From Phyllobates terribilis (lineage: Eukaryota): a DNA stretch of 64,000 nucleotides. The position numbers are program-made. The DNA is taken from NCBI RefSeq assembly GCF_046119375.1, contig NW_027363028.1, positions 1,736,001 to 1,800,000 of the forward strand, written 5' to 3'. Position 1 is the first letter of the stretch, and each line of letters opens with the position of its first letter. Of the stretch, positions 41,501 through 47,500 are shown in pieces.

Positions 41501-44500
41501 AAAGCTTATTTATAGGTAAACCTTCCTGCGCACTGTCCTGAGCATCCTGAATGTGCTGCCTGAGATCTTCCCCACCCCTTCACTAAGAATCTTGACTTGA
41601 ATTTCGTGTTGACATTCGTAGAGCCGGGAAGATAAGTAATGGCAAAATCAAACCGGGCAAAAAATACAAGGCCCACCAAGCCCGTCTGGTGTTTAAGCCC
41701 TTAACAACAATTGACATACTAATACGCGTCTGTGCCCTGGGACTTAAGAGCCAGACCCGTATTAGTACGTCATGGCGATCGCACGCGCACACAGGCTGTG
41801 CGGGCGCGATCGCCGCCGGGTGTCAGCTGATTGTCACAGCTGACACCCGGTACTATGTGCAGGGAGCGGTCACGCACCGCTCCCAGCACATTAACCCCCG
41901 CGATGCTGCGATCGAAGTCGATCGCAGCATTGCGGAGGCCAGGGGAGGTGATCGCAGATACTCACCTCCTCTTCCGGCTTCCAGCGCTGTCTGCCGTGGC
42001 TTCCAGGATGTTGCCATGACGACCCGATGTCGTCATGACAACATCCGGGTCACCAGACAGCAGGAAGATTTTTTGGACATGCGCAGTGAACCTCCAAACA
42101 ATCTTCTCCCTGTCCAGCGCTGAAAGCCTGCATGGCACAGGGATGGTGCTGCATTCCTGTGCCATGCAGGCGATCAGAGAAAAAAAAGTCCCAGAGTGGG
42201 ACAAAGTAATAAAGTATAAAAACTATCAGAAAGTGAGAAAAAAAATATAAAAAAATATTGCAAAAATATAAAAAAAATAATCCACCAAAAATAAAAATAT
42301 AATGTACCCATCAATATATATTATTATTAAAAAAAAAAAAAAACAATAAAAGTACACATATTTGGTGTTGCCACATCCGGAACAACCTGACCTATAAAAC
42401 TGTCCCTCTAGTTAACCCCTTCAGTGAACACGGTAAAAATAAAAATAAAAAATGAAGCAAAAAGCAATGCTTTATCACCATACTGCCAAACAAAAAATGG
42501 AATAACACGCAATCAAAAAGACAAATATAAATAAAAATGGTACCGCTGAAAACGTCATCTCGTCCCACAAAAAACAAGCCGCCATACAGCTCCATCAGCC
42601 GAAAAATAAAAAAGTTATAGCTCTCAGAATAAAGCTATGCTAAAAAATAATTTTTTCTATAAAATTGCTTTTATTATGTAAAAGTGCAAAACATAGAAAA
42701 ACTATATAAATGTGGTACCGCTGTAAACGTACTGACCCGAAGAATAAACCTGCCTTATCAATTTTACCATACGCGGAACAGAATAAAAAAAAACAAAAAA
42801 AACAATTCCTGAATTGTTGTTTTTTGTTTATTCTGCCTTCCAGAAATCAGAATAGAAAGCGATCAAAAAATGTCACGTGCCTGAAAATGGCACCAATAAC
42901 AACGTCAACTCATCCCGCAAAAAACAAGCCGTCACATGACTGTCTGCCAAAATCTGGAAAAATTATAGCTCTCAAAATATGGCTATGCAAAAACTAGATT
43001 TTACAAAAAATGCGTCTTTTAGTGTGTGACAGCTGTCAGTCATAAAAACCCCATATGATTCTGGTATTGCTGTAATCACACCGACCAGAAGAATAAAGTC
43101 GTCTAATCACTTATACCGCATGAGGAACGGCGTAAAAAATAAACTCTCAGGTTAGGGTTGTGCTAGGGTTGGCCTAGAGTTAGGGCTGGGTTTGGGGTTA
43201 GGGTTGTGATGGGGTTGGGATTTTTTTCAAAAGTAAGAAAAAAAGATGACGATATGGCGACTAGTGTTGAGCGCAAGTGCTCGCTACTTGAGTTTGAATC
43301 GGGTGCTCTGGTATGCATTGAGTATCGTGGGTATTTGAGTGACATGCACGAGTCTCCGCCCCATATGCTTCGCGGCCAAAAAAACTTTGCGGGGATTGCC
43401 TGCCATGCACGAGCGATCCCCGCATGTTTTTTTTTGGGTGTCTAATAACCATGAAACATGCGGAGCAGGGACTCGAGCATGTCAATCGAGCACACGCTGT
43501 ACATGGTGCATACCTGAGTACCCAATGGAAACTCAAGTAGCGAGCACTTGCGCTCAAGACTAATGACAACTTATTCAATATGATGACCAAATGTTAGAAA
43601 ATTCTGTGTCGTACCTCTGGGTTCAAAATGTTCACTATACACCTTAATAAAATCCTTGAGGGGTATAGTTTCCAAAATGGGGTCACTTGTGGGGGAGTTC
43701 CACTGTTTAGGCACATCAGGGGCTCTCCAAACGCGACATGGTGTCCGCTAACAATTTGAGCTGACAATTTGTTAGCGGATACCATGTTGCATTTGGAGAG
43801 TCCCTGTGTGCCCAAACATTGGAGCTCCCCCACAAGTGACCCCATTTTGGAAACTATACCCCCCAAGGCACCTATCTAGATGCATAGTGAGCACTTGGAA
43901 CCCCCAGGTGCTTCACAAATTGATTAGTAAAAATGAAAAAGTGAAAAAAAAAACATTTTTCATTTTTATGAATCAATTTGTGAAGCACCTGAGGGTTCCA
44001 AGTGCTCACTATGCATCTAGATAGGTGCCTTGTGGGGTCTAGTTTTCAAAATGGGGTCACTTGTGGTGGAGCTCCAATGTTTGGGCACACAGGGGCTCTC
44101 CAAACGCAACATGGTGTCCGCTAACAATTTGAGCTGACAATTTGTTAGCGGATACCATGTTGCATTTGAAGAGTCCCTGTGTGCCCAAACATTGGAGCTC
44201 CCCCACAAGTGACCCCATTTTGGAAACTAGACCCCCCAAGTCACCTATTTAGATGCATAGTGAGCACGTGGAACCCCCAGGTGCTTCACAAATTGATTCA
44301 TAAAAATGAAAAAGTGTTTTTTTTTTTTTCACTTTTTCATTTTTACAAATCAATTTGTGAAGCACCAGGGGGTTCCAAGTGCTCACTATGCATCTAGATA
44401 GGTGCATTGGGGGGTCTAGTTTCCAAAATGGGGTCACTTGTGGGGGAGCTCCAATGTTTGGGCATACAGGGGCTCTCCAAACGCAACATGGTGTCCGCTA

Positions 44501-47500
44501 ACAATTTGAGCCGATTTTCCATTCAATTTGTTAGTGGACACCATGTCGCGTTTGGAGAGCCCCTGTGTGCCTAAACATTGGAGCTCCCCCACAAGTGACC
44601 ACATTTTGGAAACTAGACCCCCCAAGGCACCTATCTAGATGCATAGTGAGCACTTGGAACCCCCAGGTGCTTCACAAATTAATCCGTAAAAATGAAAAAG
44701 TGGAAAAAAAAACACTTTTTTATTTTTACGGATTAATTTGTGAAGCACCTGGGGGCTCCAAGTGCTCACTGTGCATCTAGATAGGTGCCTTGTGGGGTCT
44801 AGTTTCCAAAATGGGGTCACTTGTGGGGGAGCTCCAATGTTTAGGCGCACAGGGGCTCTCCAAACGCGACATGGTGTCCGCTAACAAATTGAGCCGACAA
44901 TTTGTTAGCGGATACCATGTTGCATTTGGAGAGTCCCTGTGTGCCCAAACATTGGAGCTCCCCCACAAGTGACCCCATTTTGGAAACTAGACCCCCCAAG
45001 TCACCTATCTAGATGCATAGTGAGCACTTGGAACCCCCAGGTGCTTCACAAATTGATTCATAAAAATGAAAAAGTGTTTTTTTTTTCACTTTTTCATTTT
45101 TACAAATCAATTTGTGAAGCACCTGGGGGTTCCAAGTGCGCACTATGCATCTAGATAGGTGCCTTGGGGGGTCTAGTTTCCAAAATGGGGTCACTTGTGG
45201 GGGAGCTCCAATGTTTGGGCACACAGGGTCTCTCCAAACGCAACATGGCGTCCGCTAATTATTCAAGCAAATTTTACAATCAAAAAGTCAAATGGCGCTC
45301 CTTCCGAGCCCTGCCGTGCGCCCAAACAGTGTTTTTTCCCCACATATGGGGTATCTGCGTGCCCAGGGGAAATTGCACAACAAATTTTGGGGTCTATTTT
45401 TTCTTGTTACCCCAGTGAAAATAAAAAAAATTGGGTCTAAAGTAACATTTTTGTGAAAAAAGTTAAATGTTCATTTTTTTCTTCCACATTCCAAAAATTC
45501 CTGTGAAGCACCTAAAGGGTTAATAAAGTTCTTGAATGTGGTTTTGAGCACCTTGAGGGGTGCAGTTTTTAGAATGGTGTCACTTTTTGGTATTTTCTGT
45601 CATAAAGACCTCTCAAAGTGACTTCAAATATGATGTGGTCCCTAAAAAAATGGTTTTGTAAATTTTGTTGGAAAAATGAGAAATCGCTGGTCAACTTTTA
45701 ACCCTTATAGCTCCCTAACAAAAGAAAATTTTGGTTCCAAAATTGTGCTGATGTAAAATAGACATGTGGGAAATGTTATTTATTAACTCTTTTGTGTGAC
45801 ATATCTCTCTGATTTAAGGGCATAAAAATTCCAATTTTGAAAATTGCAAAATCTTCAAAATTTTTGCCAAATTTCTGTTTTTTTCACAAATAAACGCAAA
45901 TGATATCGAAGAAATTTTACCACAATCATGAAGTACAATATGTCACGAAAAAACATTCTTAGAATCAGGGGGATCCGTTGAAGCGTTCCAGAGTAATTAC
46001 CTCATAAAGTGACAGTGGTCAGAATTGTAAAAATTGGCCTGGTCATTAACGTGCAAACCACCCTTGGGGGTTAAGGGGTTAAGCACTTAGCATCGTCAAC
46101 ATACAACAGGTTCTTATGATCGGTCAAGACAGTCACCTTATCTGCTGGACCTCAAATTGACATTTCTCCAGTTTTGCAAATAAATGGTTGTCACGTAGAG
46201 CCTGAAGAAACTCTCTGACATGCTCGTGATGCTCCTCCAGAGTATGTGAATAAATCAATATGTCATACAGGTAAATCACCACAAGTCTACCCACTAGTGA
46301 GCAAAAAATATTATGATATTTTAAAAGACTGAAGGTGCATTGGTTAACCCAAATGGCATCACCAAATTTTCAAAATGGCACTGAGGCGTAATGAATGCGG
46401 TCTTCCATTCGTCACCCTGATGTATGTGTATAAGGTTATATGCCCCTCTCAAGTCAAGTTTGGAAAACCATTTAGCTCCAGATAATTGCTTAAACAGGTC
46501 CGGTATAAGGGGTAAATGATAGGAATTGTGAGCCGTGATTTTATTAATCTCTCTAAAATCCAAGTACGGATGCAACTCTCCATCCTTTTTTTAACAAGAC
46601 AAACCCTCACGGCGAGGTGGATGGACGTATATGACACTTAGGGCAGAGACACACAAGGCCATATAACTTGTGCGAGGATCGCATCGCACTGAATGGACTG
46701 GCCCGCACCTCTCCTGACCTGAACATGACAGCGTGATGTATTTCTATGTAGCTGTCAAGCTCAGGTCAGGAGAGGTGTCGGCCAGTACGAGATTTATGAT
46801 GTGATCCTCGCAGGAGAAGTACGGCCGTCTGTCTCTGCCCTCAGCCGGACTCTTCTGAATATAGTCTTTCAAGGCCTCCCTCCCTGGAAGGGGTTAAACA
46901 TACAATATTTCGGCCTTTTAGCTCCTGGTATGAAGTGGATAGCACAATCATATGCCGCCATATAGTAGACGTCGGGTAACTGGTGATAATCACCTCATGT
47001 GTCGTCTATTTGTCTCCAAGCAGGAAAATCCCACGTTACATTCCGCACATAAAACTGTAGAAAAGGTGGCGCGGGGTAATTGTGCCCGTAGTGAGGGGCA
47101 AATAATGCCGGAAATGTCACTGACTGCGGAGACGTCTCCATGTAGCGTCTTCACTCCGGATATCACTGTACAGGAGCTGCACAGTTCACACTGAGCATCC
47201 ACTGAGGCCCCTGATCATGTGACCCCTGACTCCTCCCTCCTGTGACCTCATCACAGGTCCTGTGCGCACAGAGCAGCCATATATGTTGTGGCGGCTCTGC
47301 AGGTGGAGGTATGTGGAGATCCCCCATTACCAGGCGCAGGGGGCATTAACCCCTTCAGCACGGAGACTCTTTTGGGGTCTCTGTGTGGTGTGAACAGTGA
47401 GGTAACAGCTGTGGACAGAATGCGGCTTCGCTGGTTCCCGTCCACATTAGATCCATTCAGACGACTGCAGGATGAAGGACCGAAGCCCAGAGAAGTCCTC

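What the first reader, a model, noticed from the sequence alone, without database searches (positions are those of the whole stretch)
43640..45260. Nine-arm alternating inverted-repeat array inside a transposon whose sister copy has direct repeats
The same internal sequence is arranged head-to-tail in 5230-6370 but forward-reverse-forward for about 1.6 kb here. Two kinds of fold-back junction recur with a period of about 375 bp. This fits one template-switch inversion followed by tandem amplification of the palindromic unit, or repeated fold-back replication. It could extrude multiple cruciforms or, lying between copies B and C, yield long dsRNA if transcribed. It is the most unusual structure in the window.
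Basis: partly seen in the sequence, partly recalled or inferred. Interest (0 to 1): 0.68.

Follow-up and report, generated by a model that had tools for sequence, protein, structure and literature searches.

The report
Alternating inverted-repeat array inside a transposon
One copy of a small TTAA-inserting DNA transposon in a vertebrate, probably frog-like, genome has had its internal head-to-tail repeats rebuilt into a run of back-to-back mirror-image copies, a real but probably functionless rearrangement of a kind already known from replication errors and satellite DNA.

Summary
Window 43575-45268 contains nine ~187-bp arms in strictly alternating orientation. Two junction types each recur four times, about 374-384 bp apart.

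The array lies inside a complete 4,382-bp non-coding transposon, copy B (41697-46078). Copy B has TTAA on both flanks and 9-nt CCC-type inverted termini, so it is piggyBac-like. Sister copy A (4814-7814) carries the same sequence as 2.9 direct 394-bp units. Only about 187 bp of each unit became an arm.

One junction type (J2) sits where native units carry a short A/T-rich interrupted inverted repeat, 16/16 nt in copy A. The other (J1) has one breakpoint shared by all four copies.

The arm tree is neither a star nor a clean split by orientation. This fits one founding inverted triplication by template switching, then stepwise unequal recombination with some exchange between arms.

The arms differ by 2-13%, so an assembly artefact is unlikely. 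Hairpin potential is very high, but no function is shown. I could not test whether other family copies elsewhere share the array. Interest is modest: a new example of a known kind.

The parts
41697..46078 (-). Copy B: complete non-autonomous TTAA-specific TIR transposon (4,382 bp) that holds the array. It is in minus orientation relative to copy A.
   Evidence: One terminus is shared with copy A. The other is shared with 4 further copies, after which homology stops. Read inward, the termini are GCCCTTAAC and CCCCTTAAC, 8 of 9 identical. 0 of 6 ORFs >=90 aa inside it match Pfam.
41693..41696 (.). TTAA flank of copy B (target-site duplication, first copy)
46079..46082 (.). TTAA flank of copy B (target-site duplication, second copy)
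43575..43761 (-). Arm 1, native orientation: hybrid border arm
   Evidence: In alignment columns 6-50 it matches arms 3/5/7 at 44/45 and the last unit of copy A at 35/43. In columns 101-196 it matches that A unit at 84/92 and the arms at 51-56/81.
43762..43948 (+). Arm 2, inverted
43949..44134 (-). Arm 3, native orientation
44135..44323 (+). Arm 4, inverted; 97.9% identical to arm 8
44324..44516 (-). Arm 5, native orientation; 94.7% identical to arm 9
44517..44707 (+). Arm 6, inverted; groups with its mirror partner arm 7 and lacks the three substitutions shared by arms 2, 4 and 8
44708..44894 (-). Arm 7, native orientation
44895..45081 (+). Arm 8, inverted
45082..45268 (-). Arm 9, native orientation: the anchor arm, which runs on into ordinary unit sequence
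   Evidence: At the J1-side end it matches copy A units at 15/15 and other native arms at 10-11/15. Its body matches the arms at 151-158/164.
45269..45513 (-). Remainder of the one ordinary 394-bp unit of copy B (the ~207-bp part that is missing inside the array)
   Evidence: 45113-45500 matches positions 1-394 of the copy A unit at 87.6%.
43759..43764 (.). J1a spacer (AGCTGA)
44128..44141 (.). J1b spacer region (core AGCTGA)
44505..44527 (.). J1c spacer, 23 nt. It keeps 9 nt that the other three J1 junctions lack, and those 9 nt align with native unit sequence.
44892..44897 (.). J1d spacer (AGCCGA)
43941..43955 (.). J2a centre, A10 run
44317..44329 (.). J2b centre, T13 run
44694..44721 (.). 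J2c centre, A9 run
45077..45086 (.). J2d centre, T10 run
4814..7814 (+). Copy A (sister copy), cut short at its left side. It is colinear with copy B on both sides of the repeats.
   Evidence: 4814-5551 matches 45843-45113 at 89.4%; 6196-7026 matches 43749-42936 at 80.5%; 7025-7822 matches 42532-41689 at 76.4%. Its terminus is ...GGGG followed by TTAA.
5193..6354 (+). Direct tandem array of copy A: 394-bp unit x 2.9
5966..6032 (.). Native short interrupted inverted repeat in copy A at the position homologous to J2 (16 nt, 100% complementary, 35 nt apart)
   Evidence: (pair I16)
47646..51761 (+). Copy C, partial and interrupted, with one unit (about 47703-48144) and part of the right-hand region (51046-51761). 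It is a separate insertion facing copy B.

Best explanation
The array is a structural rearrangement of the internal tandem repeat of one copy of a non-autonomous, TTAA-specific (piggyBac-like) DNA transposon. It is not a functional device.

Inferred sequence of events:
1. During replication of a 394-bp unit, the nascent strand switched template at a short A/T-rich interrupted inverted repeat at the unit boundary (junction J2). It copied back about 187 bp.
2. It then switched again at a site of about 4 nt of microhomology (junction J1). This gave an inverted triplication: native arm, inverted arm, native arm.
3. The two same-orientation arms, about 374 bp apart, then served as direct repeats for unequal homologous recombination. 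This added native+inverted dimers one or two at a time over a long period.
4. Along the way came a 9-bp deletion at J1, three substitutions in an inverted arm, a flip of the J2 loop, and some exchange between mirror arms.
5. At each border the array merges into native sequence through a recombinant arm.

Shown here: the anatomy, the shared breakpoints, the native inverted repeat at the J2 site, the non-star arm tree, and the host transposon's ends.

Inferred: the template-switch origin, the order of events, and that most of this happened at this locus.
For: Anatomy:
- Nine alternating arms and two junction types.
- Arms 2-9 share an 11-nt gap that is absent from arm 1, from the 3 units of copy A and from copy C, so they descend from one unit.

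Junction J1:
- All 4 J1 junctions have the same switch point and the same spacer orientation.
- J1c keeps 19 nt of native sequence past the arm; the other 3 share a 9-bp deletion within it.

Junction J2:
- J2 maps to the unit boundary, where 5 of 5 native boundaries examined hold a short interrupted inverted repeat of 9-16 matched nt. The best is 16/16 with a 35-nt spacer in copy A.
- In yeast, inverted triplications form with junctions at pre-existing interrupted inverted repeats of 2-14 bp. Overall sizes (repeat plus spacer) of 40-80 bp are preferred (PMC10766183, passages).

Stepwise growth (29 of 181 columns vary, 11 are informative). Bootstrap support out of 500:
- arms 4+8: 472
- arms 2+4+8: 363
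- arms 5+9: 342
- split of (copy A units, arms 6, 7) from the rest: 433
Dimer 2 versus dimer 4 is 94.2% identical; the other dimer pairs are 86.8-92.2%.

Borders: both border arms are recombinant.

Age and reality: arms differ by 2.1-12.8%. 18 of 29 variable columns are transition-only and 10 lie in a CpG context, as expected of aged genomic DNA.

Within the window: only 1 of 6 family loci shows any orientation change among units.
Against: - Inverted arm 6 lacks the three substitutions of the other inverted arms and pairs with arm 7 (273/500). Arms 2, 3, 4, 5, 8 and 9 share derived states across orientations. The simple model therefore needs extra conversion between arms or a second inversion.
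- Only 11 informative columns exist, and CpG sites are prone to parallel change.
- At J1 the native-type sequence (arm 9 and copy A) differs from the array type at 4-5 of the 15 J1-proximal alignment columns. The microhomology available at the time of the event is therefore unknown.
- The A/T-rich inverted repeats at J2 are low-complexity and could partly be chance.
- No other genome copies could be examined, so 'at this locus' is unproven.
- No reads were available to confirm the assembly.
Confidence: 0.58

Rival explanations
1. The palindromic array arose once in a master copy and is the normal internal structure of a subfamily of this transposon. Copy B merely inherited it.
For: Copies A and B differ by 11-24% in their flanking parts, which is as much as or more than the arms differ from each other (2-13%). 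The oldest steps of the array could therefore predate B's insertion. Copy B has intact TTAA flanks and termini.
Against: In the window, the 5 other family loci (A, C, D, E, F) show direct or single units only. Arms 4 and 8 differ by only 2.1%, which is much younger than the A-B divergence, so at least the last duplication looks local. No transposon library or host genome was available to test this.
Confidence: 0.25
2. Repeated independent fold-back events at two hot spots built the array arm by arm, or in a single burst of back-and-forth copying.
For: J2 lies at a native inverted repeat that could act repeatedly. Arms 6 and 7 resemble each other across J2c (92.5%; 4 shared columns). J2 loops alternate A10, T13, A9, T10.
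Against: All 4 J1 junctions share one breakpoint, and 3 of them share a 9-bp deletion. Arms 2, 4 and 8 share 3 substitutions specific to the inverted orientation. The tree is not a star. The pairs 4/8 and 5/9 lie two dimers apart, which indicates block duplication. Three of the four columns shared by arms 6 and 7 are states also seen in copy A or arm 1, that is, retained rather than newly shared.
Confidence: 0.1
3. Assembly or chimeric fold-back read artefact.
For: Palindromes are a known failure mode of long-read libraries (general knowledge, no call). No reads could be examined.
Against: An artefact from one molecule would give near-perfect mirror copies. Here the arms differ by 2-13%, with a transition- and CpG-biased spectrum. 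The junctions recur at the same two positions in variant forms. The array merges into native sequence through recombinant arms at both borders.
Confidence: 0.03
4. The array works as a hairpin-RNA locus. Read-through transcripts fold into long dsRNA and yield small RNAs against this transposon family. This is compatible with the best explanation for its origin.
For: Each dimer folds almost perfectly: RNA -352 kcal/mol, z = -39. The 1,497-nt stretch folds at -841.7 kcal/mol as DNA. The family is frequent, with at least 6 loci in 64 kb.
Against: No evidence of transcription, of a promoter or of small RNAs was available. Arm divergence of up to 13% shows no selection for perfect pairing. It is a single locus. 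No Rfam family matched anywhere in the window (0 matches).
Confidence: 0.1

Closest known systems
Interstitial inverted triplications formed by template switching at short interrupted inverted repeats (ODIRA model in yeast; DUP-TRP/INV-DUP in human loci)
   Same: A central inverted copy lies between two direct copies. The junctions sit at pre-existing short inverted repeats a few tens of bp apart (PMC10766183, passages; PMC4689423 and PMC11293582, search listing only). Here J2 maps to a native 9-16-nt interrupted inverted repeat.
   Different: The amplified segment here is only ~187 bp and non-coding. It has been extended to 8-9 alternating arms and lies inside a transposon. Whether it contains a replication origin, a stated feature of ODIRA, cannot be assessed. 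The inverted-repeat basis of J1 is unclear.
Satellite DNAs whose repeat unit is a pair of inversely oriented subunits (Tribolium madens TmSat2; Tribolium brevicornis satellite)
   Same: A tandem array of a unit made of two mirror-image halves with strong hairpin potential. TmSat2 has a 704-bp monomer with ~600-bp dyad symmetry (PMC13081366, passages). The T. brevicornis paper (Mravinac et al. 2005) was seen only as a reference entry.
   Different: Those are genome-scale (peri)centromeric satellites with thousands of units. This is four dimers at one locus inside a transposon, in a vertebrate.
piggyBac-superfamily non-autonomous transposons with internal tandem repeats, such as Tx1D of Xenopus laevis
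   Same: TTAA target duplication and short CCC/GGG-type termini. Tx1D is described as a non-autonomous piggyBac family of X. laevis (PMC4494074, passage). That Tx1D carries ~400-bp internal tandem repeats of variable number is my recollection and comes from no call.
   Different: No Tx1D sequence or description of its repeats could be obtained (PMC85248 is not held), so similarity is untested. No alternating inverted array was described for such elements in the passages I saw or in the search listings.
Foldback (FB-type) transposons
   Same: Both are mobile elements with long inverted, internally repetitive sequence.
   Different: In FB elements the long inverted repeats are the element's ends (recalled definition). 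Here the termini are 9 nt and the inverted arms are internal. An FB-like structure does occur elsewhere in the window, at 10597-15748.

Membership tests
piggyBac-like non-autonomous DNA transposon (host element, copy B) | 4-bp TTAA target-site duplication | tested here: met
   TTAA at 41693-41696 and at 46079-46082, immediately outside both termini. The hallmark is taken from PMC10140906 passages.
piggyBac-like non-autonomous DNA transposon (host element, copy B) | Short terminal inverted repeats beginning CCC / ending GGG | tested here: met
   Read inward, the termini are CCCCTTAAC and GCCCTTAAC (8/9; one end starts G). The ends of copies A, C and E start CCC(C)TT; those of D and F are degenerate versions. 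The TIR is short (9 nt, against about 13-14 nt in the cited paper).
piggyBac-like non-autonomous DNA transposon (host element, copy B) | Dispersed copies that share the termini while flanking DNA differs | tested here: met
   One terminus is shared by A and B. The other is shared by B, C, D, E and F, with homology ending at the TTAA.
piggyBac-like non-autonomous DNA transposon (host element, copy B) | An autonomous partner encoding a piggyBac-type transposase with matching termini | not testable with these tools
   No piggyBac transposase domain was found among the 109 of 127 ORFs >=90 aa scanned. The 18 dropped ORFs lie in tandem arrays at 10.8-11.9, 14.6-15.6, 20.0-20.8 and 31.1-32.0 kb. No host genome was on hand. 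Other TTAA-targeting superfamilies (for example Kolobok, recalled) are not excluded.
Inverted triplication by template switching (ODIRA-type) | Central copy inverted between two direct copies | tested here: met
   Native-inverted-native order, repeated.
Inverted triplication by template switching (ODIRA-type) | [quoted passage not shown] | tested here: inconclusive
   J2: met, 5 of 5 native unit boundaries hold a 9-16-nt interrupted inverted repeat. J1: only about 4 nt of microhomology in the array-type sequence, and the native-type sequence differs there.
Inverted triplication by template switching (ODIRA-type) | Amplified segment contains a replication origin | not testable with these tools
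   No way to identify vertebrate origins from sequence.
Satellite DNA with inversely oriented subunits | Repeat unit made of two mirror-image subunits, tandemly repeated | tested here: met
   Four dimers of about 374-384 bp.
Satellite DNA with inversely oriented subunits | Long arrays at high copy number across the genome | not testable with these tools
   Within the window it is one locus with 4 dimers. The rest of the genome was not available.
Foldback transposon | Long inverted repeats forming the element's termini | tested here: not met
   Termini are 9 nt. The inverted arms lie 1.9 kb and 0.8 kb inside the ends.
Hairpin-RNA (endo-siRNA) locus | Long inverted repeat able to fold into an extended duplex | tested here: met
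Hairpin-RNA (endo-siRNA) locus | Transcription and small RNAs mapping to both arms | not testable with these tools
   No expression data available.
Tx1D family of Xenopus laevis | Sequence similarity to Tx1D termini and internal repeats | not testable with these tools
   No Tx1D sequence is reachable. PMC85248 is not held.

The most novel reading that the evidence does not exclude
A transposon's own internal tandem repeat was converted by a replication error into a multi-hairpin cassette. When read through, it produces long dsRNA and small RNAs against the whole family. This would be a spontaneously born, self-targeting silencing locus in a vertebrate germline, with arm number tunable by unequal recombination.
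Probability: 0.08. Interest if true: 0.6.

Novelty: new member of a known kind. Interest (0 to 1): 0.33.

Why it matters
The locus is a clean natural record of how a direct tandem repeat can turn into an alternating inverted array. Both kinds of breakpoint are preserved, the parental arrangement sits in a sister copy 38 kb away, and intermediate junction forms are still visible.

It shows that the inverted-triplication route studied in yeast and in human disease loci also acts on sub-kilobase repeats inside vertebrate transposons. It also shows that this route can seed a small palindromic satellite.

Practically, such arrays are hard to assemble, clone and amplify, and they are candidate fragile or dsRNA-forming sites. 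As a single non-coding locus with no sign of function, its wider importance is limited.

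Tried and rejected
- Native unit as an old, decayed palindrome, which would have explained 374 versus 394 bp. Local alignment of the non-arm half against the reverse complement of the arm half gave z = 0.8-3.3 in 5 comparisons. Each score was below the shuffle maximum, and direct-orientation controls were similar. Rejected.
- Nested self-insertion of the element in alternating orientation. The arm borders carry no TTAA duplication and no element termini, and they fall inside the unit. 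Rejected.
- Coding repeat. Each unit of copy A and of copy C has a 112-123-aa ORF on the minus strand. There was no Pfam match (0 of 14 ORFs in A and B). All three frames of copy B's native unit contain stops and the peptides change freely. Not pursued with the large protein searches.
- Structured RNA or SINE origin. 0 Rfam matches at gathering score and 0 tRNAs in the whole window.
- First search for terminal inverted repeats, using the 20 nt at each known end with up to 5 mismatches. It found no partner because the TIR is only 9 nt. The question was solved by aligning five copies.
- Helitron reading of the hairpin near copy A's right end. No CTRR-type end (recalled rule), and the TTAA/TIR evidence supersedes it.
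- Large palindrome formed by copies B and C. They are separate insertions with their own termini, 1.56 kb apart.
- Literature on Tx1D repeats. PMC85248 is not held, and the other papers give only one-line mentions.
- Not used: the bacterial/archaeal genome collection and the phage, plasmid and E. coli collections, as irrelevant to a vertebrate repeat. No eukaryotic genome or transposon library was available, so family-wide arm numbers stayed unchecked.
- Supplements are closed. Supplementary Fig. S5 of PMC9385698 (palindromic inserts in a toad satellite) could bear on similar hairpin inserts in anurans and was not seen.

Full report
**Setting.** The window has no N. It is repeat-rich vertebrate-type DNA. 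Evidence for that: Tc1/Sleeping-Beauty-like transposase ORFs, LINE reverse-transcriptase fragments, a C2H2 zinc-finger array, a SCAN-domain ORF, and a retrovirus-like pol-env stretch on the minus strand near the right end. That scan covered 109 of the 127 ORFs of 90 aa or more listed. The 18 dropped ORFs lie in tandem arrays at 10.8-11.9, 14.6-15.6, 20.0-20.8 and 31.1-32.0 kb. I take the host to be an amphibian-like vertebrate from the look of the repeats only; no call names the organism. Nothing suggests human DNA.

**The observation.**
- A 394-bp unit of the sister copy hits 43301-45700 nine times, with strands alternating -,+,-,+,-,+,-,+,-.
- The repeat finder lists 20 inverted pairs, with arms up to 397 nt and up to 95% complementarity.
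- TRF sees a 374-bp period, 4.3 copies, 89% matches.
- I located the symmetry centres and split the array there into arms 1-9, covering 43575-45268.
- The J1 junctions lie at 43761, 44134, 44515.5 and 44894.
- The J2 junctions lie at 43947.5, 44322.5, 44707 and 45081.
- Chance is excluded. The longest exact inverted match is 66 nt, against at most 18 in 100 shuffles. The dimer of arms 6+7 folds as RNA at -352 kcal/mol, z = -39. Arms 2-9 fold as DNA at -841.7 kcal/mol.
- The sister region 5193-6354 is a direct array of 394-bp units, 2.9 copies, 80% matches.

**What the arms are.**
- Each arm corresponds to about 187 bp of the 394-bp unit: the last ~150 bp plus the first ~32 bp of the next unit. 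The remaining ~207 bp is missing between arms.
- Arms 2-9 share an 11-nt gap that arm 1, the three units of copy A and the unit of copy C do not have. They therefore descend from one unit.
- Arm 9 is the native anchor. Its J1-side end is 15/15 identical to copy A units and only 10-11/15 to the other native-orientation arms. It runs on into one ordinary unit.
- Arm 1 is a recombinant. Its first ~45 aligned positions match the array arms at 44/45. Its far half matches the last, partial unit of copy A at 84/92 and the array arms at only 51-56/81.
- The array is thus joined to native sequence through homologous stretches at both borders.

**The host element.**
- Copy A (4814-7814, plus strand) and copy B (minus strand) are colinear on both sides of the repeats, at 76-89% identity.
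- Their common right-hand end stops at ...GGGG followed by TTAA.
- Aligning five loci (B, C, D, E, F) shows the other end. Homology runs up to ...AAGGGG-type sequence followed by TTAA, then stops.
- In copy B both ends are present. The element spans 41697-46078 (4,382 bp), with TTAA at 41693-41696 and at 46079-46082. Its termini read inward as GCCCTTAAC and CCCCTTAAC.
- A TTAA duplication and short termini of CCC/GGG type are the hallmarks given for piggyBac elements (PMC10140906, passages).
- None of the 14 ORFs of 90 aa or more in A and B matches Pfam, so the element is non-autonomous.
- I file it as piggyBac-like. Other TTAA-targeting superfamilies are not excluded, and no transposase partner was seen.
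- Unit-bearing fragments of the family also lie at 646-854, 21490-21685 and 29932-30320. Copy C lies at about 47646-51761.
- Among these six loci, only copy B shows any change of unit orientation.
- The array therefore lies inside copy B. Copies B and C are separate insertions 1.56 kb apart.

**The junctions.**
- J1: all four junctions switch at the same point and have the same spacer orientation, with core AGCTGA or AGCCGA.
- J1c (44505-44527) keeps 19 nt that align with the native sequence following the arm in copies A and B. After that the sequence becomes the reverse complement of the arm. The overlap at the switch is about 4 nt.
- J1a, J1b and J1d share a 9-bp deletion inside that native remnant.
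- J1 therefore arose once, and J1c is its least altered form.
- J2: the centre is a homopolymer between GTG and CAC, reading A10, T13, A9, T10 along the array. The loop orientation therefore alternates.
- J2 maps to the A/T-rich unit boundary. There, 5 of 5 native boundaries examined (three in A, one in B, one in C) contain a short interrupted inverted repeat of 9-16 matched nt. The best is 16/16 with a 35-nt spacer at 5966-6032 (pair I16).
- These repeats are low-complexity, so part of this could be chance. Still, it is the kind of site at which inverted junctions form in yeast: interrupted repeats of 2-14 bp, with overall sizes (repeat plus spacer) of 40-80 bp favoured (PMC10766183, passages).

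**Arm relationships.**
- Pairwise identity among arms 2-9 is 87.2-97.9%.
- In 181 aligned columns away from the junctions, 29 vary. Of these, 18 are singletons only and 11 are informative.
- Groupings supported by informative columns:

| Arms sharing a state | Columns |
|---|---|
| 6, 7 | 4 |
| 2, 4, 8 | 3 |
| 3, 7 | 1 |
| 4, 8 | 1 |
| 5, 9 | 1 |
| 3, 4, 8 | 1 |

- Neighbour-joining with copy A units as outgroup gives these bootstrap values out of 500:

| Clade or split | Support |
|---|---|
| 4+8 | 472 |
| 2+4+8 | 363 |
| 5+9 | 342 |
| 6+7 | 273 |
| (copy A units, 6, 7) versus the rest | 433 |

- Whole dimers agree best two periods apart: dimer 2 versus dimer 4 is 94.2%, and the other pairs are 86.8-92.2%. 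BLAST likewise gives 91.6% at an offset of ~755 bp against 88.4% at ~375 bp.
- Three conclusions follow.
  1. The tree is not a star, so the array was not made in one burst. It grew in steps separated by enough time for substitutions.
  2. Inverted arms 2, 4 and 8 carry three substitutions absent from every native arm, and each sits next to a J1 with the 9-bp deletion. An inverted-arm-plus-junction module was therefore copied, which is the tandem-amplification model.
  3. Inverted arm 6 does not belong to that group. Arms 6 and 7, together with J1c, keep states also seen in copy A. Arms 2, 3, 4, 5, 8 and 9 share derived states in both orientations. This requires sequence exchange between orientations (conversion between mirror arms) or a second inversion.
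- With 11 informative columns, and 10 of 29 variable columns in a CpG context, I cannot separate those two options.

**Best explanation.**
- One inverted triplication formed by two template switches: J2 at the native inverted repeat, J1 at microhomology.
- Unequal recombination between same-orientation arms then expanded the array.
- Later events were a deletion at J1, a flip of a J2 loop, a recent duplication that produced arms 8-9 from arms 4-5 (or the reverse), and recombinant borders.
- The anatomy and the breakpoints are shown here. The mechanism and the order of events are inferred.
- I put this at 0.58.

**Rivals.**
- The array is a subfamily feature inherited by copy B (0.25). The A-B divergence of 11-24% is no smaller than the arm divergence, so the early steps could predate insertion. 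The 2.1% difference between arms 4 and 8 argues that at least the last step was local.
- Recurrent independent fold-backs (0.10).
- Assembly artefact (0.03). Against this: aged, CpG-biased differences between arms, variant junctions, and recombinant borders.
- A hairpin-RNA role (0.10, not exclusive of the best explanation). It rests only on folding energies.

**Comparison with what is known.**
- It works like the inverted triplications described for yeast and human loci.
- It looks like a miniature of satellites whose monomer is a pair of inverted subunits, such as TmSat2 (704 bp with a ~600-bp dyad; PMC13081366, passages) and the T. brevicornis satellite (seen only as a reference entry).
- It is not a foldback transposon, because the termini are 9 nt.
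- The host element resembles what I recall of Tx1D of Xenopus laevis: TTAA target, with internal ~400-bp tandem repeats of variable number. Only 'non-autonomous piggyBac family' is confirmed in print here (PMC4494074, passage). The repeats are recalled, and no sequence comparison was possible.
- Searches turned up no description of an alternating inverted array inside such an element. That is only six keyword searches of an open-access library, and no transposon database was on hand.

**Verdict.** This is a real, well-preserved and mechanistically readable rearrangement: a new example of a known kind, probably without function. Interest 0.33.

**What stays open.** Read support, family-wide arm numbers, transcription and small RNAs were not tested. 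Neither was similarity to curated transposon consensus sequences.

Noticed in passing
window 58943-63675, minus strand (may continue past 64000): Retrovirus-like stretch. ORFs have reverse transcriptase, RNase H and integrase domains, followed by an ORF with a gamma-type envelope (TLV_coat) match. The pol region is split over three successive ORFs, so it is interrupted at least twice (kind of break not resolved). The env-like ORF of 473 aa is open. It is described only; nothing further was done with it.
   Followed up: no
window 56267-58289, 1509-3326, 18245-19593: A ~2-kb repeat with three copies at 88-97% identity, one of them directly downstream of the env-like ORF. These could be LTRs or solo LTRs of the retrovirus-like family. 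Not examined.
   Followed up: no
window 10597-15748: Foldback-like structure. Two ~1-kb arrays of a 30-bp tandem repeat (10826-11801 and 14671-15525) lie in inverted orientation, 88% identical. They flank ~2.9 kb that holds a SCAN-domain ORF (13747-14847) and a DDE_3 transposase fragment (12213-12608). Its outer ~190 bp recurs at 47195-47386, between copies B and C.
   Followed up: partly
window 22772-24353 and 25155-26735: Two direct copies, 98% identical, of a Tc1/Sleeping-Beauty-like element. Each has an open 354-aa ORF with HTH and DDE_3 domains. They look young.
   Followed up: no
window 6709-6816 (copy A) and 43153-43219 (copy B): A degenerate telomere-like (CCCTAA)n tract lies at the same internal position in both copies of the transposon, so it belongs to the family.
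   Followed up: no
window 6377-6666 (copy A) and 43262-43562 (copy B): A second, native inverted repeat is present in both copies, outside the tandem repeats. In copy A the arms are 52-68 nt at 78-87% complementarity; in copy B they are 110 nt at 77%. The family thus has hairpin-prone sequence apart from the array.
   Followed up: partly
window 5205-6353 minus strand; 47744-48079 minus strand: Each 394-bp unit of copy A and the unit of copy C carries an ORF of 112-123 aa in the same frame on the minus strand. There is no Pfam match, and in copy B all three reading frames of the native unit contain stops. This is probably a composition effect. It was not searched against the large protein sets.
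   Followed up: partly
window 42534-42793 and 42884-43142: A local direct duplication (~260 bp, 71%) inside copy B, absent from copy A. It accounts for part of B's extra length.
   Followed up: no
window 30642-32069: An open 476-aa ORF made of C2H2 zinc-finger repeats with an 84-bp period (12 stretches match the zf-H2C2_2 double-domain model). A further degenerate finger repeat lies at 33009-33182.
   Followed up: no
window 43745-43780 and the other J1 sites: The ~10 nt next to J1 in arms 2-8 differ from the native type (arm 9 and copy A) at 4-5 of the 15 J1-proximal alignment columns. They are alike in both orientations. This is a cluster of changes, as if the end of the arm had been re-templated when or after the junction formed. 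Unexplained.
   Followed up: partly
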